DNA of 64,000 nt from NCBI GenBank assembly GCA_964409365.1, contig CAYPCX010000006.1, positions 21,012-85,011 on the forward strand. Direction: 5' to 3'. The stretch comes from an uncultured Planctomycetia bacterium (GTDB lineage: Bacteria; Omnitrophota; Gorgyraeia; Tantalellales; Tantalellaceae). Both the position numbers and the translations under genes were made by a program. Of this stretch, positions 570 through 63,092 are shown piece after piece. The notes under the pieces are model-generated. The model was not told the DNA's origin. It searched no databases and was given only the letters and a program-made list of their open reading frames with translations. The stretch's first letter is position 1; each line of letters starts with the position of its first letter.

Positions 570-621
570 TCTTCAAGTAACAAGTAACAAGTATCAAGTA
601 ACAAGTATCAAGTAACAAGTA

Positions 622-1287
622 TCAAGGACATTTTGCGGGGTCTTTGATCCCCATTTCCTCGAACGCTCTTTTACGGAAAAGACACGATTCGCATTTTCCG
701 CACGGTTCGTCACCGCCGGCGTAACATGACCACGTGCTCTCGAACGGAACTCCCAGCTTGATGCCGAGCTTGATTATTTCCTTCTTCGTCATGTCGATAA
801 GCGGTGCCTCAATTTTTATTTTTTCCCCTTCGACCCCGCGCTTCGTGCCGTGGCGGGCCGTTTCCTGGAAACTTTTAAAAAACACCTCCCGGCAATCGGG
901 GTAATTCGAGAAATCCATCTGCTGCGCCCCTATGAAGACCGCTTCGGCCCCGATGACCTCCGCGAAAGACACGCCATAGCTTAAAAAGATCATGTTCCGC
1001 GCCGGTACGTACGTCTCGGGTATGGACCCGCCTTCGCTTACCAGGCCCTCCGGGATAGTTTTTCCGACATCCAGCAGAGCGCTTCCCTCCCAGGGCAGCG
1101 ATATGTCAAGGACCCAGTAACTGCAGCCCGCTTTCTCGGCAACGTTCCGCGCGCAGTCGATCTCTTTCGCGGCTTTCTGCCCATAGTCAAATATGAGCAC
1201 GTGACACTCGTGGTCCTTCTTTGCCGCGTGAAGCGTGACCGCCGAATCCATCCCTCCCGACAACAGCACGACCGCTTTCTTGTTCAC
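622..1287 (-). CDS. queC: 7-cyano-7-deazaguanine synthase
   Basis: MNKKAVVLLSGGMDS PP-loop ATPase N-terminus and C-terminal Cys cluster (CGKCESC) typical of QueC. Confidence 0.9.
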   Translation of the reverse strand: MNKKAVVLLSGGMDSAVTLHAAKKDHECHVLIFDYGQKAAKEIDCARNVAEKAGCSYWVLDISLPWEGSALLDVGKTIPEGLVSEGGSIPETYVPARNMIFLSYGVSFAEVIGAEAVFIGAQQMDFSNYPDCREVFFKSFQETARHGTKRGVEGEKIKIEAPLIDMTKKEIIKLGIKLGVPFESTWSCYAGGDEPCGKCESCLFRKRAFEEMGIKDPAKCP

Positions 1288-8095: not shown

Positions 8096-9089
8096 ATAAT
8101 ACCTCTTTCGCGGCATCGAACACTTTTTCCACGGAAAGCCCCGGGAGACATCCCTCATCGGGGCCTACCCGGCATAAAGCCCTCCCGCAGGGACGGCACG
8201 GAACGTCCGGGTTGAGGACCCTGCTCTTTTTCGACAACGGCCCGTATTTCTTCTCGTCCGAAGGCCCGAAAATAGCGATAACGGGTGTATCCACCGCGCT
8301 GGCCACATGCATCGGCGCGCTGTCATTCGTCACCAGGAGGTCCGCCCTCTTGATGAACCCGGTAAGCAGACCGAGCGAAGTCCTGCGGGAAAGGTCCGTC
8401 ACTTCCTCTTTTACGCAGGACATGAACTTTTCCACTACTTCCTTGTCGTCCTCGTTCCCTACTACCAGGATTTTACACCCGGTGTCCGAGACCAGTTTGT
8501 CGGAAAGAGCCGCGAAATTCTCCGCTCCCCACCTCTTGAGATGGCTTTTAGCCCCGGGATTGATGATCACGATCTTTCTGTCTCCGGCACTCTTAAGCGT
8601 CTCTTCCACGGTCTTCTCTTCCTGTTCGATCACGGGCATGAAGAACCTGTTCCCCGAGAACGGATCGATACCTAACCCCGCGAGTTTCGCGAGATGTTCA
8701 TCCTTTTTGTGACCTGTGTGTATTCCGGAAGGTCTTTTATATAAAGGGTTTACGTTAAATATCCCGGTGCGGTGCTTTGCCCCGACGATATAAGGGATGA
8801 GTGAATTCTTGAGATCCACGACCAGGTCGTATTTCGCGCGGCGCAGGTCACGGATATATTCGAAATATTCGCCCAGGGACCTGTCCTTCTTGTGTATGAT
8901 CACGTCCCTTACCGCGGGATGAAGGAGAAATATCTCATCGCCCGGCAGCCCGGTGACAACATCGATCTCGGCTCCGGGGAACTCATCGTGCAGCTTCTCC
9001 AGGACCGGGGTGGTCAATATTATATCACCGAGGTTGCTCAGCGTGATAAAAAGTATCGTTCTTACCTTTTCCTTGTCTATTTTCATCAA
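8088..9089 (-). CDS. LPS heptosyltransferase (GT9)
   Basis: GT9 family (ILFITLSNLGDIILTTPVLEKL). Confidence 0.75.
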   Translation of the reverse strand: MMKIDKEKVRTILFITLSNLGDIILTTPVLEKLHDEFPGAEIDVVTGLPGDEIFLLHPAVRDVIIHKKDRSLGEYFEYIRDLRRAKYDLVVDLKNSLIPYIVGAKHRTGIFNVNPLYKRPSGIHTGHKKDEHLAKLAGLGIDPFSGNRFFMPVIEQEEKTVEETLKSAGDRKIVIINPGAKSHLKRWGAENFAALSDKLVSDTGCKILVVGNEDDKEVVEKFMSCVKEEVTDLSRRTSLGLLTGFIKRADLLVTNDSAPMHVASAVDTPVIAIFGPSDEKKYGPLSKKSRVLNPDVPCRPCGRALCRVGPDEGCLPGLSVEKVFDAAKEVLYG

Positions 9090-10110: not shown

Positions 10111-11210
10111 CCGGCGATCACTTCCCTGTAGACTTCCATGGTCTTTGTCACGCTTTCTTCGATCGAAAAATTTCGCGCCGCTTTTTCCCTGGCCTTTTTC
10201 CCGAAGCTCTCGCGCAGGGAAACGTCATTCGTCAGGCGCGCTATACTCTCGCTCAGGGCGCGGGGATCTTCAGGCGGAACGAGGAGCCCGTCCTTTTCGT
10301 GCGTGATAAGTTCCGAAAGCCCCCCCACGTCACTGGCCACGCATGCGCGCCCCGAAGCCATAGCTTCCATCAGGGCAAGCCCCAGCCCTTCATGCACCGA
10401 CGGGAGACAGAACACATCCATGAGCCCCAGATACTTCCCTAAAGACGCGCCGCCCGGTACCATGAAAACATTCTCATCCAGACCCAGGCGCGAGACCTGT
10501 TCCCTGAGGATATCCTTTTCCGGGCCGTCCCCCACAATAAGAAGCTGCAACCGCCCCGGCCCGGAGGTAAGGTCGCCGAAAGCCGCCACAAGGTACTTAT
10601 ATCCTTTAACGGAAGAAAGCCTTCCCACCGAACCTATAACGGTCGCGTCCCTGGCCAGACCGATGCTGTCCAACAGGTCAGTATCCTTCTCCGGACCTCC
10701 GGAGGGATAATTTTCCAGTTCTATCCCGTTGAACACCAGCTTCACGCGCTCCGCGGGAAAACCAAAATCGTCGACAAGATGCCTGCGCACGCTCTCGCTT
10801 ATGGCTATTACCCTGTCCCCCCAGCACGGGAAAAGTTTTCTCCCCAACCTCTTGTACCGAAAAAAACCGTGGCAGGTCGATATATAAGGCCGTCCGGTGA
10901 TCTTACCGGACACGCACGCCAGGACCTGCGCGACACGGGTCTGGGCATGAAGGATGTCATACCCTCCGTCCCTCACCAGCCTGTTAAGCCTGGGCAGGGC
11001 TTTCCACACCGCGGGGCCCAGTTCGGTCTTCGTCTTTATGTCCAAATGGAAGTGCTCAACCCCCTCTTCCCTCAGCCGGCCCTCAAGATCGCCGCCGCTC
11101 GAGGCGACGGTCACCGAAGCGCCGGCTTTCGCGAGGTACCTGGCCAGGTTCACGGTATAGATGCCGATCCCGCCCATGTTCAGGTGTGTCGTCAGCAGTA
11201 ATATCTTCAC
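10107..11210 (-). CDS. glycosyltransferase family 4 (LPS core, WaaG-like)
   Basis: GT4 (GT-B fold) N- and C-terminal motifs, including the EGLGLALMEAMASG region. Confidence 0.75.
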   Translation of the reverse strand: MKILLLTTHLNMGGIGIYTVNLARYLAKAGASVTVASSGGDLEGRLREEGVEHFHLDIKTKTELGPAVWKALPRLNRLVRDGGYDILHAQTRVAQVLACVSGKITGRPYISTCHGFFRYKRLGRKLFPCWGDRVIAISESVRRHLVDDFGFPAERVKLVFNGIELENYPSGGPEKDTDLLDSIGLARDATVIGSVGRLSSVKGYKYLVAAFGDLTSGPGRLQLLIVGDGPEKDILREQVSRLGLDENVFMVPGGASLGKYLGLMDVFCLPSVHEGLGLALMEAMASGRACVASDVGGLSELITHEKDGLLVPPEDPRALSESIARLTNDVSLRESFGKKAREKAARNFSIEESVTKTMEVYREVIAG

Positions 11211-13302: not shown

Positions 13303-13392
13303 AATATTCAGGTTTCAAGTTTCAGGTTTCAAGTCTCAGGGCCATGGATAAAGACATGCTTTTTCTTCCGCCTGACACCTGACACCCGACAC

Positions 13393-15339
13393 CTAAAATA
13401 ATCTGTACAATTTCTCGTATATTCTCCGGTTATCTTCAGGTACGGTAAATTCCGCTCTTCTTTCAAGGACGTCTGTCAACCGGTCCGGTATCTCTTCCGG
13501 TTTCACTACTTTAAGGTACTTTTTCCGGTCGAGATCGTCGACGAATTTTTCGTATTTGGTCGGCCCGGCGACCTTCTTGTCGGGCATGAACACCAACACG
13601 GGTTTCCCGGACGAAACCGCCTCGGAGACCATGGATATGCTCTCTCCGGAGACCATTATCACGTCGCTTGCCGCCATTATCTTTTCCACCGTGTGATCGT
13701 CCGTATCGTCCCTGCCTGAAACGTACATCGCGCACCTGGGATAGGACCCTAACATCTCCTTCACCGCTGCCTCGGCGCCCTCGGAAGTCCTCCTGGAAGT
13801 GGTCATGTAGAGATACCCGTCCCTTGCTTCGCAGGAACGCCGGACATTCTCCCCGAGGGATCTCAAAAGATCATTCCCGAACGTGTAATCAGGATTGTCC
13901 CCGCCGAGAAGAAGCCCCAGGCGGAATTTGCCCGGGAACGCCTTCCCCTCGCCTATCTTTTCCCTGAATGACGCCAACTCGCCGGAACTGATAAGGTTGG
14001 GGGCAAGGTCCGTAAAGATCAGGTTGTCCTTCGGCTTTCCTTTTACCTTATGCATGTCATGCCGCGGGATGATAACGAGATCGAACTTTTTGCGGCTCAG
14101 CGGGCCCGGGTCCATTACCGTGACGTTACGCGCGTAGTTCTCGATCTTCAGCATCCTGCTGACACCGAACAGTGAAGAGCCGCAGCTGACGATGATATCA
14201 GCGTACCGGTTGACCGCATTATCATAACTTTCCGCATCAAGCGCCCATCTCAAAAAGCCCATCCGGCCCTGGAAGTTATTGACGAAGAATGGGCTGAGCG
14301 CGTTAAAGACCGTTTTTCGAGCTTTGTTCCTGAAATTTATGCGAACGACTTCCGCTTCAATATATTCGGGCGCGTACCCTTCATCCTCCCGGAAGCGCCT
14401 CATCTGCTTCACGACGGCAAGAGATTGTTTGAGGTGCCCCTTCTTGCCGTCATCGAGCACCATGACCTTCCTGAGAGGGGTCACTTTCCATCTCTTGTGC
14501 ACCCAGAACCACTGATCGGGATGGTCGCGGACATGCTTTTCCAGCAACCTGCTGTATTCCTCCATGTAGGGGATTATGTCATCATCCTCGCCTATTTTCA
14601 TGGGCTGTTCCAGCACAAGCTCATGATACGGGCCTTTTTTCCTGTGTATGAACGCCGGCAGTACCCACGCCCCGCTCTTCTGGGCGAACCGGTACGGGCC
14701 CGTAACAGTGGATGCCGGGCGGCCGAAAAAATCTATGAGTTCGCCGCTGGAGCCGGCGTTCTGGTCCGCGAGAAGACCCAGGCTCTTGCCCTCATGCAGC
14801 ACGCGGAAGATCTTCTTTATATCAAGCCCCTTGCGTATCACGACGTTGCCTTTGGCCTCGCGCATCCCGTTAAAAAGCTCATTGACCCTTTGCATCTTCT
14901 GGTCCCTCGCGATGATATGCATCGGGAACCCTTTTATCACGCTGGCCGCTATGCTCAGTTCCCAGCTCCCGAAATGGGCGGAAACCAGTATCATCCCGTT
15001 CGGGTTCTTCGCGGCTTCCACTATTCTTTCAAAATTGATGATATCCACGTATTTTTCCACGAACCGGTCGTCCACCTTGGTAAGCAGCATTATGTCCGCG
15101 ATAGTACGGCCCAGGTGTTTGTACACCTTTTTCGTCAGGCGCTTGATCTCGGCGGGGCTCTTTTCCGAGCTGAACGCCGCTTTCAGGTTGGCATACGTTA
15201 CCCTCTGCCTTTTCCCGCTCAGGACGTACGCGAGTGACCCCAGGCCGCTCGCAAGCCACAGGCTGAACCGCATCGGCAAAAAATGCAGTATCCGGTTCAG
15301 CGCTTTAACCGCGTAAGACGCTATCAAGTCCAGAAACAA
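13393..15339 (-). CDS. fusion protein: lipid A secondary (lauroyl/myristoyl) acyltransferase LpxL/HtrB-like N-terminus plus ELM1/DUF1022-like GT-B C-terminal domain (648 aa)
   Basis: N-terminal about 300 aa matches the LPLAT LpxL family. The C-terminal domain starts VMVLDDGKKGHLKQSLAV and contains TTSRRT, which resembles the DUF1022/ELM1 family. Confidence 0.6.
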   Translation of the reverse strand: MFLDLIASYAVKALNRILHFLPMRFSLWLASGLGSLAYVLSGKRQRVTYANLKAAFSSEKSPAEIKRLTKKVYKHLGRTIADIMLLTKVDDRFVEKYVDIINFERIVEAAKNPNGMILVSAHFGSWELSIAASVIKGFPMHIIARDQKMQRVNELFNGMREAKGNVVIRKGLDIKKIFRVLHEGKSLGLLADQNAGSSGELIDFFGRPASTVTGPYRFAQKSGAWVLPAFIHRKKGPYHELVLEQPMKIGEDDDIIPYMEEYSRLLEKHVRDHPDQWFWVHKRWKVTPLRKVMVLDDGKKGHLKQSLAVVKQMRRFREDEGYAPEYIEAEVVRINFRNKARKTVFNALSPFFVNNFQGRMGFLRWALDAESYDNAVNRYADIIVSCGSSLFGVSRMLKIENYARNVTVMDPGPLSRKKFDLVIIPRHDMHKVKGKPKDNLIFTDLAPNLISSGELASFREKIGEGKAFPGKFRLGLLLGGDNPDYTFGNDLLRSLGENVRRSCEARDGYLYMTTSRRTSEGAEAAVKEMLGSYPRCAMYVSGRDDTDDHTVEKIMAASDVIMVSGESISMVSEAVSSGKPVLVFMPDKKVAGPTKYEKFVDDLDRKKYLKVVKPEEIPDRLTDVLERRAEFTVPEDNRRIYEKLYRLF

Positions 15340-16342: not shown

Positions 16343-16353
16343 TGCCAGTAAAA

Positions 16354-16420
16354 ATATATTCTGGGGACATGTTTGGGCACCTACATAACGTCTACGACAA
16401 ACGTGTCCCCAGAACCTCAG
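16354..16420. repeat. conserved intergenic hairpin element, family A (TCTGGGGACA...TGTCCCCAGA), single copy, lpxK/waaA junction
   Basis: atatattCTGGGGACATGTTTG-loop-CAAACGTGTCCCCAGaacctcag. Its stem differs from other copies by paired substitutions. The waaA stop codon (TAG, 16392-16394) lies in the loop. Confidence 0.85.
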
Positions 16421-17696
16421 TAATGTATGGTTCCATTTTTCTTATAGTTCTACTAATCGCTCCCGAATTCCGTTCGATGACCTTTCTCGCGTTAGCGCTT
16501 ATCCTTTTTCTTTTTTCCGGATCACGCAAAAGTTCCCGCGCCACCGATCTCAGCTGTTCCACGTTCTCCACTCCGACAGCGGCATCATTCTCCAGAAAGA
16601 TATCGGCCACTTCCCTGAAGTTATACATGTTGGGCCCGAAAAGCACCGTCTTGCCCCAACTTGCTCCTTCTATCGGGTTCTGTCCGCCTTTTCTGGCCAG
16701 ACTACCTCCGACGAATATCAGTGTCGCAACGCTATATATATCCTTCAGATGCCCTATCGTATCCACCAGCACCACATCCACTTCGGAAGTGGCGCCTTGT
16801 TCAACCCCGGGGGTTGAAAGTATCTCGGAAAAAAGGCGGTATTTCATGCCTGACCTCTCGAGAAAAGCTCTGACAACATCCGTCCTTTCGACGTGCCGGG
16901 GAGCAAGTACTAGCTTCAGGTCGGGATACTTTCCTTTGAGTTCACCGTAAACGTCTATTATCTCCTTTTCCTCGGGGGAATGCGTGCTCCCGGCCACAAC
17001 GACCCTGTCTTCACGGCCAAATCCAAGGTACTCGCCGCTGAATGCGCCGGACGAGGCCGAGCCGGCAGGATCGTCGAACTTCATATTGCCCGTGACAAAG
17101 ACCTTTTCCCCCGGGGCACCGAGCGTCTTGATCCTTTCGGCGTCCCTTTCCGTCTGCATGCAGAAACAGTCGACGCATTTCAGGATGCGTTCCGTTACGA
17201 ACTTTATCCTGCCGTAATTCGTGAAAGAAGAATCGGATATCCTGCCGTTGGCCAGGATGATCGGCACGTCCTTGCGGTTGAGCTGCCGCAGAAGGTTCGG
17301 CCAAAGCTCCGTTTCCATCATCACGTACACCGACGGGTGCACAAGAGCCACGACCCGGGACACGATCACGCTTATATCCAGAGGATAATAGAATATCGCG
17401 TCGACCACGCCCTCGCCCGCCTTACGGATCATCTTATTACCGGTCTTCGTCGTGGTGGAAACTATGACAGAAGTGCCCGGACACGTCTTCTTTATCCCCG
17501 AGGCGAGCCGCGCCGCGAGCTGCGCCTCTCCCACGCTGACCGCGTGTATCCAGACGGGCCTTTCCAGCTTCTTTACGCTATCCGGCAGAACGCCGAACTT
17601 CTGGGGGAAATCCCCGTGAAGCTTTCCCTTTACCAGAAGATAAGGAACGTACAAAGCCGCGAAAACCAGAAAAACAAGATCATACAGTAACTGCAT
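16392..17696 (-). CDS. waaA: 3-deoxy-D-manno-octulosonic acid (KDO) transferase
   Basis: WIHAVSVGEAQLA motif of KdtA/WaaA. The last 9 codons are encoded inside the family-A repeat. Confidence 0.85.
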   Translation of the reverse strand: MQLLYDLVFLVFAALYVPYLLVKGKLHGDFPQKFGVLPDSVKKLERPVWIHAVSVGEAQLAARLASGIKKTCPGTSVIVSTTTKTGNKMIRKAGEGVVDAIFYYPLDISVIVSRVVALVHPSVYVMMETELWPNLLRQLNRKDVPIILANGRISDSSFTNYGRIKFVTERILKCVDCFCMQTERDAERIKTLGAPGEKVFVTGNMKFDDPAGSASSGAFSGEYLGFGREDRVVVAGSTHSPEEKEIIDVYGELKGKYPDLKLVLAPRHVERTDVVRAFLERSGMKYRLFSEILSTPGVEQGATSEVDVVLVDTIGHLKDIYSVATLIFVGGSLARKGGQNPIEGASWGKTVLFGPNMYNFREVADIFLENDAAVGVENVEQLRSVARELLRDPEKRKRISANARKVIERNSGAISRTIRKMEPYITEVLGTRLS

Positions 17697-22859: not shown

Positions 22860-23358
22860 CCGCCATTAACCCCTTTATCAATTTCACCACCCCGTTAACA
22901 TCCAGGTCGGCCGTGTTGATGTGAATATCGGCCTTTTCGTAAAAAGGGCTCCGGTACTCCATCAGTTCCTCGATCCGCTTTTTCGGGTCCTCCACGTTCA
23001 AAAGCGGCCTGTGCCCGTGCTTTACCGTGCGCTCATAAATAGTATCAAGGTCGGCCCAGAGACAAATGATAACGCCGTTCTTCCTCAAGTTCTCGATGTT
23101 CTTTTCGTCCAACACCACCCCGCCTCCGGCGTCTATCACCTGGTCCGCCTTTTCGCCGATCTGGCCTACGACCTCTTTCTCCACTTTGCGGAAATAAGGC
23201 TCTCCCTGGTCCTTGAAAATATCCTTGATGGGCTTCTTCTCCCTGGCTTCTATCAGGTCATCGGTGCTCACGTATTTCATGCCAAGGTCCCTTGCCAGGG
23301 CTTTCGCGACCACCGTCTTCCCCGTTCCCATAAACCCCACAATCGTTATATTTTTCAT
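22828..23358 (-). CDS. aroK: shikimate kinase
   Basis: MKNITIVGFMGTGKT P-loop. True start is the ATG at 23358. The track's upstream extension translates the repeat element. Confidence 0.85.
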   Translation of the reverse strand: MKNITIVGFMGTGKTVVAKALARDLGMKYVSTDDLIEAREKKPIKDIFKDQGEPYFRKVEKEVVGQIGEKADQVIDAGGGVVLDEKNIENLRKNGVIICLWADLDTIYERTVKHGHRPLLNVEDPKKRIEELMEYRSPFYEKADIHINTADLDVNGVVKLIKGLMADEKEDERKES

Positions 23359-23361
23359 AAT

Positions 23362-23477
23362 AATATATTCTGGGGACACGTCTGGTCGTCTACATGGCAT
23401 TTACACAGACGTGTCCCCAGAACCTCCGTTTTGTCAATCTACATGGCATTTACACAGACGTGTCCCCAGAACCTCCG
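23362..23477. repeat. family-A hairpin element, two tandem modules (one left arm, two loop plus right-arm modules, 49-bp period)
   Basis: aatatattCTGGGGACACGTCTG-gtcgtctacatggcatttaca-CAGACGTGTCCCCAG-aacctccgtt, then ttgtcaat-ctacatggcatttaca-CAGACGTGTCCCCAG-aacctccg, which abuts the aroC TAA stop. Confidence 0.85.
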
Positions 23478-24623
23478 TTACCTTTCTTTCAGCGTCTCCA
23501 TGTACGCGTCGTAATTCCTCCGCATCTCGCCTATCGAGTCCCTGCCGAACTTGTCCAGGAACGCCGAGGCCAGCTCTATCGCCACGGAGGCTTCCGCGAC
23601 CACCGCGCAGGCGGGCACGGCCGCGACATCGGCACGCTCTACCGCAGCTTTCGCCTTTTTCCCGGTGTCGACATCAACCGACGCCAGGGGTTTTCCAAGA
23701 GTGGCTATGGGCTTCATGAAACCCCTGACCACCACGGGCGCCCCGTTCGTCAGTCCGCCTTCTATTCCACCGGCATTGTTCGAGCCTCTGGTAAAAGTCC
23801 CCGTCTTCTCGTCATACCCTATCGGGTCATGCGTTTCGGAACCCTTCATGGAAGAACACTCTATGCCGCTGCCGATAGACACGGCTTTGACGGCCGGTAT
23901 GGACATCACCGCGCGGGCAAGCGCCCCGTCCATCCTCTTGTCCCACTGTGCATAACTGCCCAGCCCCGGCGGTACCCCCTCAGCGACTATCTCAAACGCG
24001 CCCCCGAGAGTGTCACCGGCTTCCCCGGCCTTGTCTATCTCTTTCTTCATGGCCTCAGCCGCTTTCTTGTCGGCGCACCTCACGTCGGAGGTCTCGGCCG
24101 ACTTGCGGATCTGGGCGACTGAAAGGCTTCCCGGGGCGGCTTTGACGGAACCGATAGCGGTCACGTGGCCGGCCACCTCTATCCCCAGCTCCCTGAGGAG
24201 TATCTTGGCCACGGCTCCCGCTGCCACGCGCGCTGCCGTTTCACGGGCACTGGCCCTTTCGAGCACGTTCCTGGCATCGGAAAAACCGTGCTTGAGCATG
24301 CCCGCAAGGTCCGCATGCCCGGGCCTCGGACATTTTATATCGGCAAGGTCCTCGATCTTGTAGTCCTTATTTTCTATGAGCATGGCGACGGGGCTGCCGA
24401 TCGTTATCCCCTTGCGGGAGCCGGATATTATCTCCGCCTTGTCGCTCTCGATCCGCATGCGGCCTCCCCTGCCATAGCCGGTCATTCTCCTGGCAAGCTC
24501 CCCGTTGATGAAATTTTCATCAAGCTTGATGCCGGCTGGTACGCCGTCAAGAATGGCCACGAGACCCTTCCCGTGTGATTCTCCTGCAGTCATGTACCTG
24601 AGCATGGTCAACTCCTTTTCCAT
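23478..24623 (-). CDS. aroC: chorismate synthase
   Basis: 381 aa AroC family. Confidence 0.9.
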   Translation of the reverse strand: MEKELTMLRYMTAGESHGKGLVAILDGVPAGIKLDENFINGELARRMTGYGRGGRMRIESDKAEIISGSRKGITIGSPVAMLIENKDYKIEDLADIKCPRPGHADLAGMLKHGFSDARNVLERASARETAARVAAGAVAKILLRELGIEVAGHVTAIGSVKAAPGSLSVAQIRKSAETSDVRCADKKAAEAMKKEIDKAGEAGDTLGGAFEIVAEGVPPGLGSYAQWDKRMDGALARAVMSIPAVKAVSIGSGIECSSMKGSETHDPIGYDEKTGTFTRGSNNAGGIEGGLTNGAPVVVRGFMKPIATLGKPLASVDVDTGKKAKAAVERADVAAVPACAVVAEASVAIELASAFLDKFGRDSIGEMRRNYDAYMETLKER

Positions 24624-27991: not shown

Positions 27992-28188
27992 GTCATTTCC
28001 TTTTCTCAGAAGACAGAAGTCAGATGTCAGAAATCAGATATTAGGTGTTTGGTGTTAGATATTAGTTATTAGTTTTTAGTTCTTAGTCGTACAACTCATA
28101 ACTCATAACTAACAACTCAACACTTGATACTTGTTACTTTATCCTTTATCCTTGTTACTTGTCTCTGTCCTCTGTCATCTGTCCTCTA
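27992..28188. repeat. about 28-unit degenerate heptamer tandem array filling the ilvC-leuA spacer; the two halves are roughly complementary
   Basis: cagaaga cagaagt cagatgt cagaaat cagatat taggtgt ttggtgt ... gttactt gtctctg tcctctg tcatctg. The units drift gradually; the 5' half is purine-rich and the 3' half pyrimidine-rich. Confidence 0.85.
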
Positions 28189-31513: not shown

Positions 31514-31915
31514 TCAAGTCACAGGTTGCAGGTTCCAGGTCGCGGATTCCAGGCTTTTTAGAACCGCTTGCCGGAAACAATGCAGTTTCTTGCCCAAGTT
31601 TTCATATCTATTAAACAACGACTCGAATAATTCCCTTTGTTTTAGCGAACTGGTATCAAATAATAACTGAAGATGTTCTTTTGTTTCATCAACAGAAGCA
31701 AGCGCATATGTAAGGTATTTTACATATTCAAGTTTATATTTTTTCCGGCCAAAACCTTCCACGATCAAAGCAGGAATAGATTTCGAAGATCTTCTAACCT
31801 GACTTCCCCCTTCATACACTTCAAATCTAGGCAATCTTTTCAACGTCATTTCGTGTATTTCAACTGCCAGCTTATGGGAAAGGTCATATATTTCCAAATT
31901 TTGATAACTTTGCAT
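31514..31915 (-). CDS. four-helix-bundle protein (23S rRNA intervening-sequence protein family)
   Basis: 133 aa with the characteristic LEIYDLSHKLAVEIHEMT ... YALASVDETKEHL pattern. AGGAG SD 14 nt upstream of the ATG. Flanked on both sides by heptamer arrays. Confidence 0.7.
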   Translation of the reverse strand: MQSYQNLEIYDLSHKLAVEIHEMTLKRLPRFEVYEGGSQVRRSSKSIPALIVEGFGRKKYKLEYVKYLTYALASVDETKEHLQLLFDTSSLKQRELFESLFNRYENLGKKLHCFRQAVLKSLESATWNLQPVT

Positions 31916-31924
31916 AATATATCA

Positions 31925-32117
31925 AAACTCCTCGCCTGACTTGCGACTTGTGACTTGCGACCTGCGACTTGCGACCTGCGACTTGTGATACACACACATA
32001 TATAGACACCTTTTTTCATTTTTTCTTGAAAATAACTTAAAACTTGGGGCTTGCAACTTGGCGCCTGAGACTTGCGACCTGCGACTTGAGACCTGAGACC
32101 TGCGACCTGCGACTTGA
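31925..32117. repeat. heptamer tandem array (gacttgc/gacctgc units) with an AT-rich centre, between alr and the four-helix-bundle gene
   Basis: gacttgc gacttgt gacttgc gacctgc ... cttgcga cctgcga cttgaga cctgaga. The track ORF 31846..32121 is a translation of these repeats. Confidence 0.8.
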
Positions 32118-33967: not shown

Positions 33968-34434
33968 AATAACTTATCGATAAGATCCGCGAACCTTCCG
34001 TTATTCGAACGGAACTCGAACTTTCTTTCGGTACTATAGCCGTGAAAGATATCTATCTCGAGATAGTCCTCGGGCAGGACGTCCCGTATCTTTTCGGCCC
34101 ATTCGACCACGGTGATGCCATCACCGTAGAAATACTTTTCATAATCAAGGGTGTCGCAGAAACTTTTCTCTTCCAGGCGATAAACGTCAAAATGATACAG
34201 TTTCTTCACGCCCGGATATTCCTTGAGAACGACAAAAGACGGGCTGTTCACGTGGAGGTAATCTTCGACCCCCAGACCTTTCGCCAGTCCTTTAACGAAA
34301 ACCGTCTTTCCCGTACCCAGGTCTCCGACCAGGGCCACAAGATCCCCTTCGCGAAGTTCTTTTGCCACGTTAGCCCCTAATTCGATCGTCTCTTCCGGCG
34401 AAAATGTCCTCATCTCCTTCATCACGCCTGACAC
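33964..34434 (-). CDS. tsaE: tRNA t6A biosynthesis ATPase TsaE (YjeE)
   Basis: GDLGTGKT P-loop. 156 aa. Confidence 0.8.
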   Translation of the reverse strand: MSGVMKEMRTFSPEETIELGANVAKELREGDLVALVGDLGTGKTVFVKGLAKGLGVEDYLHVNSPSFVVLKEYPGVKKLYHFDVYRLEEKSFCDTLDYEKYFYGDGITVVEWAEKIRDVLPEDYLEIDIFHGYSTERKFEFRSNNGRFADLIDKLL

Positions 34435-34455
34435 CTGAGACCTGAAACCTGAAAC

Positions 34456-35352
34456 CTAAACATGCCTGTATCCCTCCATCTTCAACTTGCTGAGGCGCGC
34501 TTCCTTTTCTATCAGTACGCGCTCGTTCTTCCTGCCTGTTATTTCGCCTATGACAAAATACTCAAGGGCTTTCGCGCGGGGCTTCATGTCCCGGAAAAGC
34601 CTTCTCGCCTCTTTAACTCCCATGGTAAAAAGAAGCTCGAAACTCTCCCCGTAATAAAGCGCCTCCCTGAGAGAAAGCCCCTTTGAAAGAGGGATGGCGT
34701 CAGCGTATAAAACGCATCCCGCGCGGCTGAGAGAGCATATCCTGCCGATATCGGGCGCTATGCCGTCGGAAGTGTCTATCATGGCGTTTATCCGGTAATT
34801 TTCCGAGAGAAAACGCGCCTCGACAAGACGCGGGATAAAATCGAGATGTTCTTTTTTGCCGTTCCTTACGGGCCCCGTCACGAGGATAAGGTCGCCTTTC
34901 TCCGCGCCGGAGCGCGTTAAAAGACGTTCCTTTTCCACGATCCCCAGGATGGAAACGTCTATCACCAGTTTCCCCGAACGGACGGTATCCCCGCCTATGA
35001 CCTTGACGCCGTACTCCCTGCATATGCCGAAGATCCCGTCGTATATCTTATCGACTGCCGTCCGCGCCATGCCGCGCGGCACCCCGATACTGACGGTAAC
35101 GTACTTCGGGAGACCTCCCATCGCCGCTATGTCGCTTATGTTCACCGCGACGGCTTTCCTGCCTATTTTCGCATACTCCGTATCCCCGGTCCGGAAATGA
35201 GTGCCGGAGACGAGCATGTCGGCCGCCCATAAAAGATACTCTCTCTTCGTGTGCTCAAGGACAGCGCAATCGTCGCCTATGCCCAGTTTTACGCCTTTGC
35301 CGGGCCTTCCCGCGCGCTTGCGTATCTTTTCAATTAATTCCAACTCTCTCAT
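34456..35352 (-). CDS. thiL: thiamine-monophosphate kinase
   Basis: AIR-synthase-related fold. Start taken at MRELELIEK (35352). The track's extension reads into the repeat. Confidence 0.8.
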   Translation of the reverse strand: MRELELIEKIRKRAGRPGKGVKLGIGDDCAVLEHTKREYLLWAADMLVSGTHFRTGDTEYAKIGRKAVAVNISDIAAMGGLPKYVTVSIGVPRGMARTAVDKIYDGIFGICREYGVKVIGGDTVRSGKLVIDVSILGIVEKERLLTRSGAEKGDLILVTGPVRNGKKEHLDFIPRLVEARFLSENYRINAMIDTSDGIAPDIGRICSLSRAGCVLYADAIPLSKGLSLREALYYGESFELLFTMGVKEARRLFRDMKPRAKALEYFVIGEITGRKNERVLIEKEARLSKLKMEGYRHV

Positions 35353-35356
35353 AATA

Positions 35357-35520
35357 GTATATTCTGGGGACACGTCTGGTCGTCTACATGTCGTTCACAC
35401 AGACGTGTCCCCAGAACCTCAGTTTTGTCAATCTACATGTCGTTCACACAGACGTGTCCCCAGAACCTCAGTTTTGTCAATCTACATGTCGTTCACACAG
35501 ACGTGTCCCCAGAACCTCAG
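35357..35520. repeat. family-A hairpin element, three tandem modules (49-bp period)
   Basis: One left arm (CTGGGGACACGTCTG) followed by three copies of ctacatgtcgttcaca-CAGACGTGTCCCCAG-aacctcag(tt), separated by ttgtcaat. The mtnA stop codon TGA lies in the last aaccTCAg flank. Confidence 0.9.
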
Positions 35521-36551
35521 TCCCCTATCATTCGTACTACTTTGCTCCTATTGGGCTTCCTTATAACCCCTTTTTCCGTGATGATCGCGGTGATAAGCCT
35601 GGCCGGCGTGACGTCAAAAGCGGGGTTCACGACATCGACCTTTTTCGGCGTAATGAACTTCCCGTTCACTTTTTTCACCTCAAGCGCGGGCCGTTCTTCA
35701 ATAGGGATGGACTTCCCGTTTTTCAGCGAAAGATCAAAAGTGGAAGCGGGCGCGGCCACATAGAACGGCACACGGTGAAACGCGGCAATCACTGACAAAC
35801 TGTACGTCCCTATCTTGTTAGCCGTATCTCCGTTAGCCGCTATACGGTCCGCCCCGACCACTATAGCGTCTATTTTCCCTTCCGCCATCAGCGAAGCGGC
35901 CATGTTGTCGCATAAAAGGACCGTGGGGACGCCTTCCCGCATGAGCTCCCAGGCCGTAAGGCGGGCACCCTGCAGGACGGGACGCGTCTCGTCCGCGTAC
36001 ACCTTTTTTATCTTTTTCCTGGCCGAAAATATCACTCCAAGCGCCGTGCCATACCCGCCGGTCGCCAGGCCGCCGGCGTTGCAGTGGGTAAGGACCCGCG
36101 CCGCCCTCGGCAGGAGCTTTTTCCCGTTCTTACCTATCGCGCGGCAGATCTTCACGTCTTCCCTTAGAACAGCGTGAGCCTCGTCAAGTATCAGGCGCTT
36201 CAGTTCCCTGACGGGCCTGGCCCTGTTCGTGTCGACCACGAAAGCCATCCGCTCCAGCGCCCAGAAAAGGTTCCTGGCGGTAGGACGCGAACTGGAAAGG
36301 TACTTGATCGTCGCGGCAAGCTCTTTCCTGAACGGCCGGATATCCTTTGCCCGGCTTTTCCTTATTCCCAGGTACACGCCGTACGCCCCGGCTATACCTA
36401 TCGCCGGAGCGCCTCTTATCTTCATGTGCCTGATAGCCGCCCACATATCCCCGCGGGTCCGGCAAGTCACGTATTTAAGTTTACCCGGCAGGAGCCTCTG
36501 GTCGATAAGTTCCACCCTGCCGTTCTTCCACCTTATAGGTTCCACGTTCAT
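35517..36551 (-). CDS. mtnA: methylthioribose-1-phosphate isomerase / eIF-2B-related family
   Basis: MNVEPIRWKNGRVELIDQRLLPGKLKYV N-terminus typical of MtnA. Confidence 0.75.
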   Translation of the reverse strand: MNVEPIRWKNGRVELIDQRLLPGKLKYVTCRTRGDMWAAIRHMKIRGAPAIGIAGAYGVYLGIRKSRAKDIRPFRKELAATIKYLSSSRPTARNLFWALERMAFVVDTNRARPVRELKRLILDEAHAVLREDVKICRAIGKNGKKLLPRAARVLTHCNAGGLATGGYGTALGVIFSARKKIKKVYADETRPVLQGARLTAWELMREGVPTVLLCDNMAASLMAEGKIDAIVVGADRIAANGDTANKIGTYSLSVIAAFHRVPFYVAAPASTFDLSLKNGKSIPIEERPALEVKKVNGKFITPKKVDVVNPAFDVTPARLITAIITEKGVIRKPNRSKVVRMIGD

Positions 36552-37638: not shown

Positions 37639-37737
37639 ATCTTCATAACCTCGTCGTCATCCTTGCACCCTGACACCGTCTTCTGTCTTCTGTCTTCTGT
37701 CCTCTGTCTTCTGTCTTCTGTCCTCTGAAACAAGCCG
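37639..37737. repeat. heptamer array (tctgtct/tctgtcc, about 8 near-perfect units)
   Basis: tctgtct tctgtct tctgtcc tctgtct tctgtct tctgtcc tctgaaa. Confidence 0.85.
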
Positions 37738-39114: not shown

Positions 39115-39130
39115 GTTAACGCCTCATAGG

Positions 39131-39172
39131 TTTCAGGTTTCAGGTCTCAGGTTTCAGGTTTCAGGTTTCAGA
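39131..39172. repeat. heptamer microsatellite (caggttt/caggtct, 6 copies) between ogt and the tatD-rSAM gene
   Basis: ggtttcaggtttcaggtctcaggtttcaggtttcaggtttcag. Confidence 0.85.
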
Positions 39173-41861: not shown

Positions 41862-42012
41862 GTTAACTCCCCATCTATCTGTATCAGAAGTCAGATGTCA
41901 GAAGACAGAAATCAGATATTAGGTGTTTGCTGTTGGAGGACACTATAATCTTTTTTCTGTCCTCTGTTCTCTGTCTTCTGTTTTCTGTCCTCTGTTCTCT
42001 GAGACTTTTCGT
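41862..42012. repeat. heptamer array sharing a 5' module with the 27992-28188 array
   Basis: cagaagtcagatgtcagaagacagaaatcagatattaggtgtttgctgtt ... tctgtcctctgttctctgtcttctgttttctgtcctctgttctctgagac. Confidence 0.8.
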
Positions 42013-63012: not shown

Positions 63013-63024
63013 ACAAAAATAAAA

Positions 63025-63092
63025 ATATATTCTGGGGACACATCTGGTTGTCTACATGTCGTTTACACAGATGTGTCCCCAGAACCTCAGTT
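63025..63092. repeat. family-A hairpin element, single copy, PolX/ligA junction
   Basis: atatatTCTGGGGACACATCTG-gttgtctacatgtcgtttaca-CAGATGTGTCCCCAGAacctcagtt. The stem carries the paired change CG to TA relative to loci 2 and 3. Confidence 0.85.

What the first reader, a model, noticed from the sequence alone, without database searches (positions are those of the whole stretch)
35357..35520. Family A modules multimerise in 49-bp (7x7) steps: one left arm followed by 1, 2 or 3 loop+right-arm modules
At the thiL/mtnA junction the element consists of one left arm and then three tandem copies of [ttgtcaat]-ctacatgtcgttcaca-CAGACGTGTCCCCAG-aacctcagtt. The aroK/aroC junction (23362-23477) has two such modules, and loci 1 and 4 have one. 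The single left arm could pair with any of the right arms, giving mutually exclusive folds. The period is exactly 49 bp. The inter-module spacer ttgtcaat is attgacaa on the sense strand, a TTGACA hexamer. The array is not CRISPR-like, because the variable part is only 8 bp and is identical between modules.
Basis: seen in the sequence. Interest (0 to 1): 0.65.

Follow-up and report, generated by a model that had tools for sequence, protein, structure and literature searches.

The report
Repeat hairpin with variable half-copies
A small hairpin-forming repeat that sits between housekeeping genes of an uncultured Omnitrophota bacterium carries one, two or three tandem copies of its front half; the copy number differs between assemblies of the same organism, which makes it an unstable selfish-type repeat, not a new kind of genetic system.

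Summary
Window 35383-35521 is a perfect 49-bp tandem array of 2.8 copies. The aroC/aroK gap holds two units and two other gaps hold one.

Genes run on the minus strand. On that strand each unit is a 5' flank (ACTGAGGTT), a left arm, most of the loop and an 8-nt linker. A single right arm and an A/U-rich flank close the array 9 nt before the thiL start codon.

The element belongs to a polar palindromic repeat family with a 17-bp stem. The stem is kept by compensatory changes, and a C-A mismatch within it is conserved. I found the family in at least four Omnitrophota genomes. Extra left-half units are common across them (periods 45-49), and extra right arms never occur.

A second assembly of the same organism has no substitutions over about 25 kb. 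It has one unit at thiL/mtnA instead of three, and it also differs by 14 bp in a heptamer array.

My best reading is a REPIN/MITE/BOX-like intergenic repeat whose 5' half is amplified and then gains or loses units by slippage. The "7x7" idea and a TTGACA promoter are not supported. A role in translation or termination is possible but untested.

The parts
35481..35521 (-). Unit 1 (distal): ACTGAGGTT + left arm CTGGGGACACGTCTG + loop part TGTGAACGACATGTAGA. The TGA inside ACTGAGG (35519-35517) is the mtnA stop codon.
35473..35480 (-). Linker TTGACAAA between units 1 and 2
   Evidence: Same linker at 23430-23437. Matches the TTGAC-N3 flank of the family in MAG JBDRNI01.
35432..35472 (-). Unit 2, identical to unit 1
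35424..35431 (-). Linker TTGACAAA between units 2 and 3
35383..35423 (-). Unit 3 (proximal). Its left arm is the nearest partner of the single right arm.
   Evidence: Covariance-model match 35353-35424, 80.5 bits.
35379..35382 (-). CGAC, the last 4 nt of the loop, present only in the terminal complete hairpin
35362..35378 (-). The single right arm CAGACGTGTCCCCAGAA (17 nt including the AA that pairs with the TT of the 5' flank)
35353..35361 (-). A/U-rich 3' flank TATACTATT, the only 9 nt between the hairpin and the thiL ATG (35352-35350)
   Evidence: Start confirmed by the gene call in L118 and by the N-terminus of the L130 homologue.
23359..23478 (-). Two-unit copy between aroC (stop 23480-23478) and aroK (ATG 23358-23356): unit 23438-23478, linker 23430-23437, unit 23389-23429, right arm 23368-23384
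16350..16422 (-). Single-unit copy between waaA and lpxK. The waaA reading frame runs through the 5' flank and left arm and stops at TAG in the loop.
63021..63092 (-). Single-unit copy between a PHP/PolX-like gene and ligA. The orthologous gap of MAG JBDRNI01 (L008 3944-4021) also holds a family member.
35517..36551 (-). mtnA (S-methyl-5-thioribose-1-phosphate isomerase), the upstream gene
34456..35352 (-). thiL-type AIRS-domain gene, the downstream gene

Best explanation
Family A is a polar, non-coding palindromic interspersed repeat of about 72-80 bp, found in a group of Omnitrophota. Its parts are a 5' flank ACKGAGGTT, a 17-bp stem, a 21-28-nt loop and a 3' flank AATATAWTTTT. It fills whole gaps between housekeeping genes and is probably transcribed as part of their mRNAs, where it would fold into a stable hairpin.

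The 49-bp 'modules' are tandem copies of its 5' half, that is the flank, the left arm, most of the loop and a linker. Once two identical units exist, slipped-strand mispairing or unequal recombination adds or removes units. The locus therefore behaves as a variable-number tandem repeat: 3 units in the window and 1 in another assembly of the same organism. The element itself most likely spread as a selfish, non-autonomous mobile repeat of the REPIN/MITE/BOX kind.

Shown: the anatomy, the family, the conserved pairing, the recurrent left-half arrays and the copy-number difference. Inferred: transcription, mobility and the slippage mechanism.
For: The array is perfect and the four loci are real.

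A covariance model finds 24 complete elements. All lie in Omnitrophota loci: the window, MAG JBDRNI01, L123-L125 and L130. None was found in L128, L131 or 76 unrelated loci searched alongside. Matches score 62-89 bits on one strand and 21-41 on the other, so the element is polar.

The stem is 92.8% paired, and 6 of 17 pairs show changes on both sides. No shuffle of 500 reaches the observed covariation score, and slid controls give only 19-47% paired.

Extra units are widespread:
- L130 8508-8687, period 46 x 3.9 copies.
- L130 11071-11194, period 45 x 2.7 copies, at the orthologous mtnA/thiL gap.
- L125, period 47 x 2.0 copies.

There are 24 right arms against at least 33 left arms, and never more than one right arm per locus.

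The L125 array is an exact A-S-S-B tandem duplication with a 2-nt microhomology.

ENA contig k141_1412183 matches the window with 0 substitutions over about 25 kb. It has 1 unit at mtnA/thiL and 2 units at aroC/aroK, and it is 14 bp shorter in the 53-bp array at 574-626.

Three Logan contigs end exactly where a second predecessor of the unit's first 31-mer would create a branch.

The state of the gap differs between species: the genes overlap in L131, and L128 has a different hairpin.
Against: - I found no target-site duplication, no parent insertion sequence and no transposase, so mobility is inferred only.
- The same TTGACAAA linker at two loci whose units differ in sequence cannot come from local slippage alone. 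It needs a shared two-unit ancestor or a templated process.
- Orientation is biased: 20 copies are co-oriented with genes and 4 are opposed.
- The C-A mismatch is conserved in 16 of 23 copies.
- The flanks are strongly conserved across genomes of 40-53% GC.
- Two orthologous gaps are occupied in two species.

The last four points would also fit a selected function or a specific protein partner. In addition, the one-unit allele rests on a single short-read assembly.
Confidence: 0.6

Rival explanations
1. The element is a cis-acting RNA element of the operon mRNA that controls the downstream gene. The hairpin base lies 9-12 nt before the start codon, and an SD-like GAGG sits directly 5' of the stem. 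There are two possible modes. The closed hairpin may bring GAGG next to the AUG, a split ribosome-binding site as in phage T4 genes 38 and 25 (own knowledge). Or the hairpin may mask the initiation region until ribosomes finishing the upstream gene melt the left arm, which is translational coupling. Spare left arms beyond the stop codon would keep the right arm paired, so the unit number would tune coupling.
For: aroK, thiL and the genes downstream of the L124 and L125 copies start 9-12 nt after the stem. Only A and U lie in between, with a single C at thiL and L125, and there is no SD of their own. L130 tsaB starts 15 nt after the stem. Upstream reading frames stop in the 5' flank (mtnA) or run through the left arm and stop in the loop (waaA, L124, L125). 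Orientation is biased 20:4 towards the gene strand. GAGG is conserved in three of the four genomes.
Against: SD-less starts are common in this genome. Only 28 of 55 first starts have an SD-like motif, against 23% of internal ATGs. The missing SD is therefore not special. In L130 the flank is GAAGTT, and 4 of 9 copies are antisense to the genes. Many copies in JBDRNI01 and L130 lie far from any start codon. Predicted RNA stability shows no strand preference: the mean sense-minus-antisense difference is -0.06 kcal/mol.
Confidence: 0.17
2. The element is a terminator-like or 3'-end-stabilising hairpin that was spread as a repeat, like pneumococcal SPRITE or E. coli REP. A 17-bp stem followed by UAUAUUUUU would attenuate read-through or protect upstream mRNA. 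The extra left arms would be neutral passengers.
For: The stem is stable, at -27 to -42 kcal/mol with z-scores of -2.5 to -7.5. In 19 of the 23 aligned copies the 9 nt after the stem are A/T only, and the other four have a single G or C. The orientation bias fits a strand-specific tail. SPRITE is described as an 18-bp duplex followed by a U-rich tract (PMC3049150).
Against: The consensus terminator scan finds nothing here, because the loop of 21 nt is outside its 3-8 nt limit. Essential genes start 9 nt downstream with no room for a promoter, so termination cannot be efficient. The tail is UAUA-interrupted and is not a clean U tract.
Confidence: 0.13
3. The arms are double- or single-stranded DNA binding sites for a sequence-specific protein such as a transposase, a recombinase or a nucleoid protein. 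The arrays of direct half-sites plus one inverted half-site would be the functional unit.
For: GGGGACA/TGTCCCC and the flanks are conserved across genomes, with the six core pairs invariant, while the distal stem only covaries. The stem contains a conserved mismatch. JBDRNI01 copies carry further direct GGGGACAYNCC motifs upstream. Only left-type sites are multiplied.
Against: No candidate protein was identified. The spacing of half-sites varies (15, 45-49 and about 62 bp). The element lies inside tightly packed operons, not at replication or recombination landmarks.
Confidence: 0.07
4. The three-unit count is an assembly artefact, either an expansion in the JGI contig or a collapse in the ENA contig.
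For: Both contigs are short-read assemblies, and the 139-bp array is about as long as a read.
Against: For k of 99 or more, every k-mer across a 139-bp array of period 49 is unique (my reasoning). A k141 assembler therefore needs real reads to join flank, one unit and right arm. The same two assemblies also differ in a 53-bp array that any assembler resolves. Three independent Logan contigs break at the position expected for a unit-to-unit junction.
Confidence: 0.03

Closest known systems
REPINs and tandemly repeated REP sequences (Pseudomonas fluorescens SBW25; PMC3116915, PMC3337134)
   Same: Two inverted arms separated by a spacer form a hairpin. The copies are extragenic and multi-copy, with a genome-specific consensus. 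Higher-order ordered tandem arrays, including arrays of single REPs in direct orientation, are described for SBW25.
   Different: The arms here are not themselves palindromic, and there is no GTAG/CGTC tag at an end. No RAYT gene could be looked for. Here only one half is multiplied, next to a single partner arm.
Pneumococcal BOX elements, boxA-(boxB)n-boxC (PMC3049150)
   Same: A modular MITE-like repeat whose ends pair, with a variable number of tandem internal modules of about 45 bp. Copy number varies between strains. It is transcribed with neighbouring genes.
   Different: In BOX the repeated boxB is a separate module that barely pairs with A or C. Here the repeated unit contains one of the two pairing arms, so units compete for the single partner. 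There is no sequence relationship.
MIRU-VNTR of mycobacteria (review PMC3184786)
   Same: Units of about 40-100 bp in gaps between genes of operons, with element ends overlapping the neighbouring genes. Variable tandem copy number is useful for typing.
   Different: MIRUs carry small in-phase reading frames. A 49-bp unit shifts the frame, and the element is a long hairpin.
E. coli BIME-2 clusters (own knowledge; review PMC3184786)
   Same: Variable-length arrays built from REP units in intergenic regions.
   Different: BIME-2 alternates inverted Y and Z2 units, so both arms multiply together.
[quoted passage not shown]
   Same: A long duplex of about 18 bp followed by a U-rich tract, dispersed as a repeat.
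   Different: SPRITE is not modular. The tail here is UAUA-interrupted and abuts start codons.

Membership tests
REP/REPIN (RAYT-mobilised) | Two inverted repeats separated by a spacer that fold into a hairpin, in extragenic space and in many copies | tested here: met
   17-bp stem, 92.8% paired with compensatory changes. 24 copies in about 166 kb of Omnitrophota loci and none in the other loci searched.
REP/REPIN (RAYT-mobilised) | Each REP is itself an imperfect palindrome carrying a GTAG or CGTC tag at one end (PMC3733652) | tested here: not met
   The arm CTGGGGACACGTCTG is not self-complementary. GTAG/GTAA occurs only inside the loop and is not mirrored on the other side.
REP/REPIN (RAYT-mobilised) | A cognate RAYT (Y1 transposase) gene in the genome, flanked by copies | not testable with these tools
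None was seen among the Pfam-annotated genes: the gene tables, and ten further proteins. About twenty window genes between 41 and 59 kb were not annotated.
MITE | Terminal inverted repeats | tested here: met
   TTCTGGGGACAYRYYTG / its complement
MITE | Target-site duplications that differ from copy to copy | tested here: not met
   The sequences outside the arms are the constant, asymmetric flanks ACKGAGG and TATAWTTTT. No direct repeats lie beyond them at the six loci of this genome. TTTTGACNTT on both sides in JBDRNI01 is constant, so it is not a duplication of varying targets.
MITE | Filled versus empty sites that define the insertion | tested here: inconclusive
   mtnA and thiL overlap by 4 nt in L131/L132 and are separated by the element in the window and in L130. 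At about 70% identity the exact boundaries cannot be read.
BOX-type modular repeat | Pairing end modules with a variable number of a distinct internal tandem module | tested here: not met
   The number of units varies, but the repeated unit includes the left pairing arm.
Intrinsic terminator | GC-rich stem with a short loop, immediately followed by a U tract | tested here: inconclusive
   No site in the scan. The loop of 21 nt exceeds its limit, and the tail is UAUAYUAUU.
CRISPR array | Direct repeats separated by unique spacers of similar length | tested here: not met
   Units are contiguous, with an identical 8-nt linker.
Known RNA families (Rfam 15) | Match at the gathering threshold | tested here: not met
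   0 matches in the window. Only sub-threshold generic hairpin (miRNA) hits appear at E of 0.2 or more.

The most novel reading that the evidence does not exclude
The number of left-half units may act as a heritable, slippage-driven dial on the downstream gene. With one unit, ribosomes terminating in the 5' flank or loop melt the only left arm and free the thiL initiation region, or break a hairpin-bridged GAGG-AUG site. With two or three units, spare left arms beyond the stop codon keep the right arm paired. This would be a VNTR-controlled switch of translational coupling inside housekeeping operons, in a phylum with no genetic system.
Probability: 0.08. Interest if true: 0.7.

Novelty: new variant of a known kind. 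Interest (0 to 1): 0.36.

Why it matters
The finding defines a previously unannotated repeat family in Omnitrophota. Rfam has no match, and no paper in the library links Omnitrophota to REP, MITE or REPIN terms. The design is unusual: only one half of a palindrome is amplified, which produces competing hairpins.

In practice the arrays are hypervariable markers. They can separate otherwise identical populations, and they break or distort short-read assemblies and gene calls. Callers started thiL and aroK inside the element.

The family, together with the heptamer arrays around it, shows that the short intergenic gaps of these streamlined genomes are repeatedly colonised by structured repeats. 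If copy number affects expression of the downstream gene, it would be a simple phase-variation device. That remains to be shown.

Tried and rejected
- Rfam at gathering and at permissive thresholds gave nothing but generic hairpin noise.
- The promoter/terminator consensus scan found no gene-strand promoter using TTGACA and no terminator.
- The '7x7' link to the heptamer arrays was rejected: no lag-7 periodicity, and other arrays have periods of 45-47.
- My first collection scan used a 15-mer that is too short for 596 Gb. Most of the 117 loci were chance hits, and only six loci of MAG JBDRNI01 were real.
- The viral contig scan gave 0 hits.
- The metagenome scan gave only 3 loci. It did not return the window's own JGI contig.
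- Look-ups of aroC and aroK failed because the callers chose other start codons. The neighbouring peptidase gene worked.
- The argument that 'a missing SD is special' was weakened by the SD census.
- There is no strand bias of RNA hairpin stability.
- The closest mtnA relatives are only about 71% identical, so no near-species empty site could be obtained.
- The cluster look-up gave no name or accession for the organism.

Full report
**Observation.** Tandem Repeats Finder gives 35383-35521 as a 49-bp period, 2.8 copies, 100% identical, score 278. The 15-nt arm CTGGGGACACGTCTG occurs once on the + strand (35364) and three times on the - strand (35400, 35449, 35498). The aroC/aroK gap has one + arm and two - arms. 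The loci near 16.4 kb and 63.0 kb each have one pair. In total the window has 13 matches with up to 3 mismatches, against 1.5 expected, and no shuffle reaches 13.

**Orientation and anatomy.** GC skew is negative across the whole window and the long reading frames lie on the - strand. The element should therefore be read on that strand. The thiL/mtnA locus is then three units followed by a closing segment.

- Each unit is ACTGAGGTT, then CTGGGGACACGTCTG, then TGTGAACGACATGTAGA.
- The units are joined by the linker TTGACAAA.
- The last unit continues with CGAC, then CAGACGTGTCCCCAG, then AATATACTATT, then the thiL ATG (35352).
- The mtnA stop codon is the TGA inside the first ACTGAGG (35519-35517).
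- At aroC/aroK the A of the TAA stop is the first base of the element, and the aroK ATG again lies 9 nt after the stem.

The element thus makes up the entire intercistronic spacer. Gene identities are confirmed: MtnA (PF01008) and AIRS; chorismate synthase and shikimate kinase; Kdo transferase and LpxK, and PHP-domain protein and LigA.

**Organism.** The closest MtnA proteins that carry a name are called Omnitrophota or Omnitrophica, and they are at most 71% identical to the window's MtnA. The window is 100% identical over 12,264 bp to JGI contig Ga0180432_10000135.

**Copy number varies.** ENA contig ERZ27256770:k141_1412183 matches the window without a single substitution over about 25 kb (12,264 + 7,133 + 5,768 bp compared). 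It differs in two places.

- It has one unit instead of three at thiL/mtnA: a 66-nt gap against 164 nt, which is exactly 2 x 49 bp shorter.
- It is 14 bp shorter in the 53-bp array at 574-626.
- It keeps two units at aroC/aroK.

A 53-bp array cannot be mis-assembled at k = 141. For a 139-bp array of period 49, every k-mer of 99 or longer is unique. The one-unit path must therefore be backed by reads (my reasoning, not a read-level test).

Three Logan contigs from different runs end at ...GTCTGTGTGAA. That is precisely where the 31-mer starting at ACTGAGG would gain a second predecessor from a linker-unit junction. This supports multi-unit alleles in those samples, although another genomic copy with the same 31-mer could give the same break. 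I conclude that the locus is a real, unstable tandem repeat. Read mapping is still needed.

**The family.** A 15-mer scan of species genomes gave mostly chance hits but picked out six loci of Omnitrophota MAG JBDRNI01. A 30-base gapped pattern found three metagenome loci. Two of these come from the same JGI sample as the window and have the same arm type and GC content. Looking up MtnA homologues gave the orthologous region in three more species.

A covariance model built from 23 copies finds 24 complete elements. All lie in these Omnitrophota loci, and none was found in L128, L131 or the 76 unrelated loci searched alongside. Scores are 62-89 bits on one strand against 21-41 on the other, so the element has a clear polarity.

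The 17-bp stem is 92.8% paired, and six pairs change on both sides. No shuffle of 500 reaches the observed covariation, and slid controls drop to 19-47% paired. One position is a C-A mismatch in 16 of 23 copies. GGGGACA/TGTCCCC and the two different flanks are almost invariant across genomes of 40-53% GC.

**Multi-unit arrays are a family trait.**

- L130 (GCA_034723315.1) has nine loci in 21 kb, and most of them have several left-half units. Examples are 8508-8687 (period 46 x 3.9, 97% identical) and 11071-11194 (period 45 x 2.7, 82% identical). The second lies at the orthologous mtnA/thiL gap.
- L125 has a 47-bp x 2.0 array. It is an exact tandem duplication (A-S-S-B) with a 2-nt microhomology.
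- Two JBDRNI01 loci carry an extra truncated left arm.
- Across all loci there are 24 right arms with their 3' flank, one per hairpin, and at least 33 left arms with their 5' flank. Extra right arms never occur.
- The periods of 45-49 and the absence of lag-7 self-similarity dispose of '7x7'.

**The linker.** TTGACAAA is not explained by local slippage, because it does not precede the first unit at either locus. It matches the TTGAC-N3-ACTGAGGTT flank that precedes most of the single elements seen in JBDRNI01. The two window arrays differ in unit sequence but are homogeneous within each array. I infer that a two-unit element arose once, spread to both loci, and was then homogenised and resized locally.

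**How the array behaves.** The three left arms compete for one right arm. Forced folds give -66.5, -63.4 and -61.9 kcal/mol, and the equilibrium ensemble favours the outermost arm. During transcription the nearest arm should pair first (inference).

**Function.** Three lines of evidence fit a spreading repeat.

- The state of the mtnA/thiL gap differs between species. The genes overlap in L131/L132. L128 has a different hairpin. Family A is present in the window and in L130, where its position relative to the mtnA stop differs.
- The element overlaps the 3' ends of genes: waaA and the two upstream genes of L124 and L125 read into it.
- Each genome has its own arm consensus.

Against a purely selfish reading, orientation is biased 20:4 towards the gene strand. 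All four opposed copies are in L130.

Four genes of this organism start 9-12 nt after the stem with no SD of their own, while GAGG sits just 5' of the stem. This suggests a hairpin-bridged ribosome-binding site or coupling by hairpin melting. However, SD-less starts are common here: 28 of 55 first starts have a motif, against 23% of internal ATGs. L130 has GAAG in place of GAGG. RNA stability shows no strand preference.

The A/U tail after a 17-bp stem is terminator-like, as described for SPRITE (PMC3049150). Efficient termination, however, is incompatible with essential genes that start 9 nt downstream. There is no Rfam family, no promoter and no terminator by the scans.

**Comparison with known systems.** The closest analogues are these.

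- REPINs and the ordered tandem REP arrays of P. fluorescens (PMC3116915).
- Pneumococcal BOX elements with variable boxB number (PMC3049150).
- MIRU-VNTRs (PMC3184786).

The element works like them but fails membership tests. The arms are not palindromic REPs with a GTAG or CGTC end tag. No variable target duplications are present. The repeated module contains a pairing arm, unlike a separate boxB. No paper in the library connects Omnitrophota with such repeats.

**Verdict.** This is a real, polymorphic tandem amplification of the 5' half of a newly recognised Omnitrophota palindromic repeat. It is a new variant of a known kind, of moderate interest.

Noticed in passing
window 574-626, 13307-13394, 28006-28187, 31938-32117, 34427-34461, 37678-37727, 39128-39171, 41956-42001 and others; L130 12225-12290; the end of L023; L068 about 1090-1280: Many intergenic gaps are filled with tandem heptamer arrays whose unit differs from gap to gap (CAAGTAA, GTCTTCT, AGGTTTC, CCTGAAA and others). 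They often lie directly after a stop codon or before a start codon. The array at 574-626 differs by 14 bp between the JGI and ENA assemblies of the same organism. In L130 such arrays regularly adjoin the 3' flank of Family A. No explanation found.
   Followed up: partly
window 31514-31915 (-): A 133-aa PF05635 (23S rRNA intervening-sequence protein) four-helix-bundle gene lies between alr and ilvB. It is bracketed by heptamer arrays. It is absent from that position in L128, L130 and L131.
   Followed up: partly
L128 11068-11131 and L129 4012-4075: The orthologous mtnA/thiL gap of another Omnitrophota species holds an unrelated hairpin (TCCCGGATCGAGCCC TTCG GGGCTCGTCCGGGA), with a partial copy of its arm just upstream. 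The same gap is therefore colonised by different structured repeats in different lineages.
   Followed up: no
L130 46-587, 13644-14394, 15517-16049, 18326-18643, 19631-19919: The gaps of GCA_034723315.1 contain several further repeat families. Examples are CGTAACGGAATTTCAATA..., a 26-bp x 3 array GGCCAGAGGCCGCTCCTACGGGATAA, and a long hairpin-like 'TTCATAACCC...GGGTTATGAA' block. Its intergenic regions are unusually repeat-rich compared with L131.
   Followed up: no
window 16392-16422; L124 and L125 upstream genes: Reading frames run into the element. WaaA gains ...ITEVLGTRLS*. Two other proteins of the same sample both end in GGSGDTSV*, encoded by the 5' flank and left arm, with the stop codon in the loop.
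   Followed up: partly
L001 about 2205-2290, L023 55-125, L068 4540-4620, L090 2840-2960, L102 50-110, L123 2175-2260: In MAG JBDRNI01 and in L123 the element is usually preceded by a second conserved block, GGGGACATGYC-TTTT-GGGGACACCCC-TGAGCAC-GAAAAT...GTTTTTGATGTTTTTTGAC. This block carries further direct GGGGACA motifs and also occurs alone (L008 about 2040-2090).
   Followed up: no
window 23331-23400 and 35352-35373; L130 11212: Automatic gene calls start aroK and thiL at codons inside or beyond the element: the aroK call has 167 aa, and L130 thiL has 327 aa starting at the ATG of the right arm. The repeat therefore misleads start-codon prediction.
   Followed up: yes
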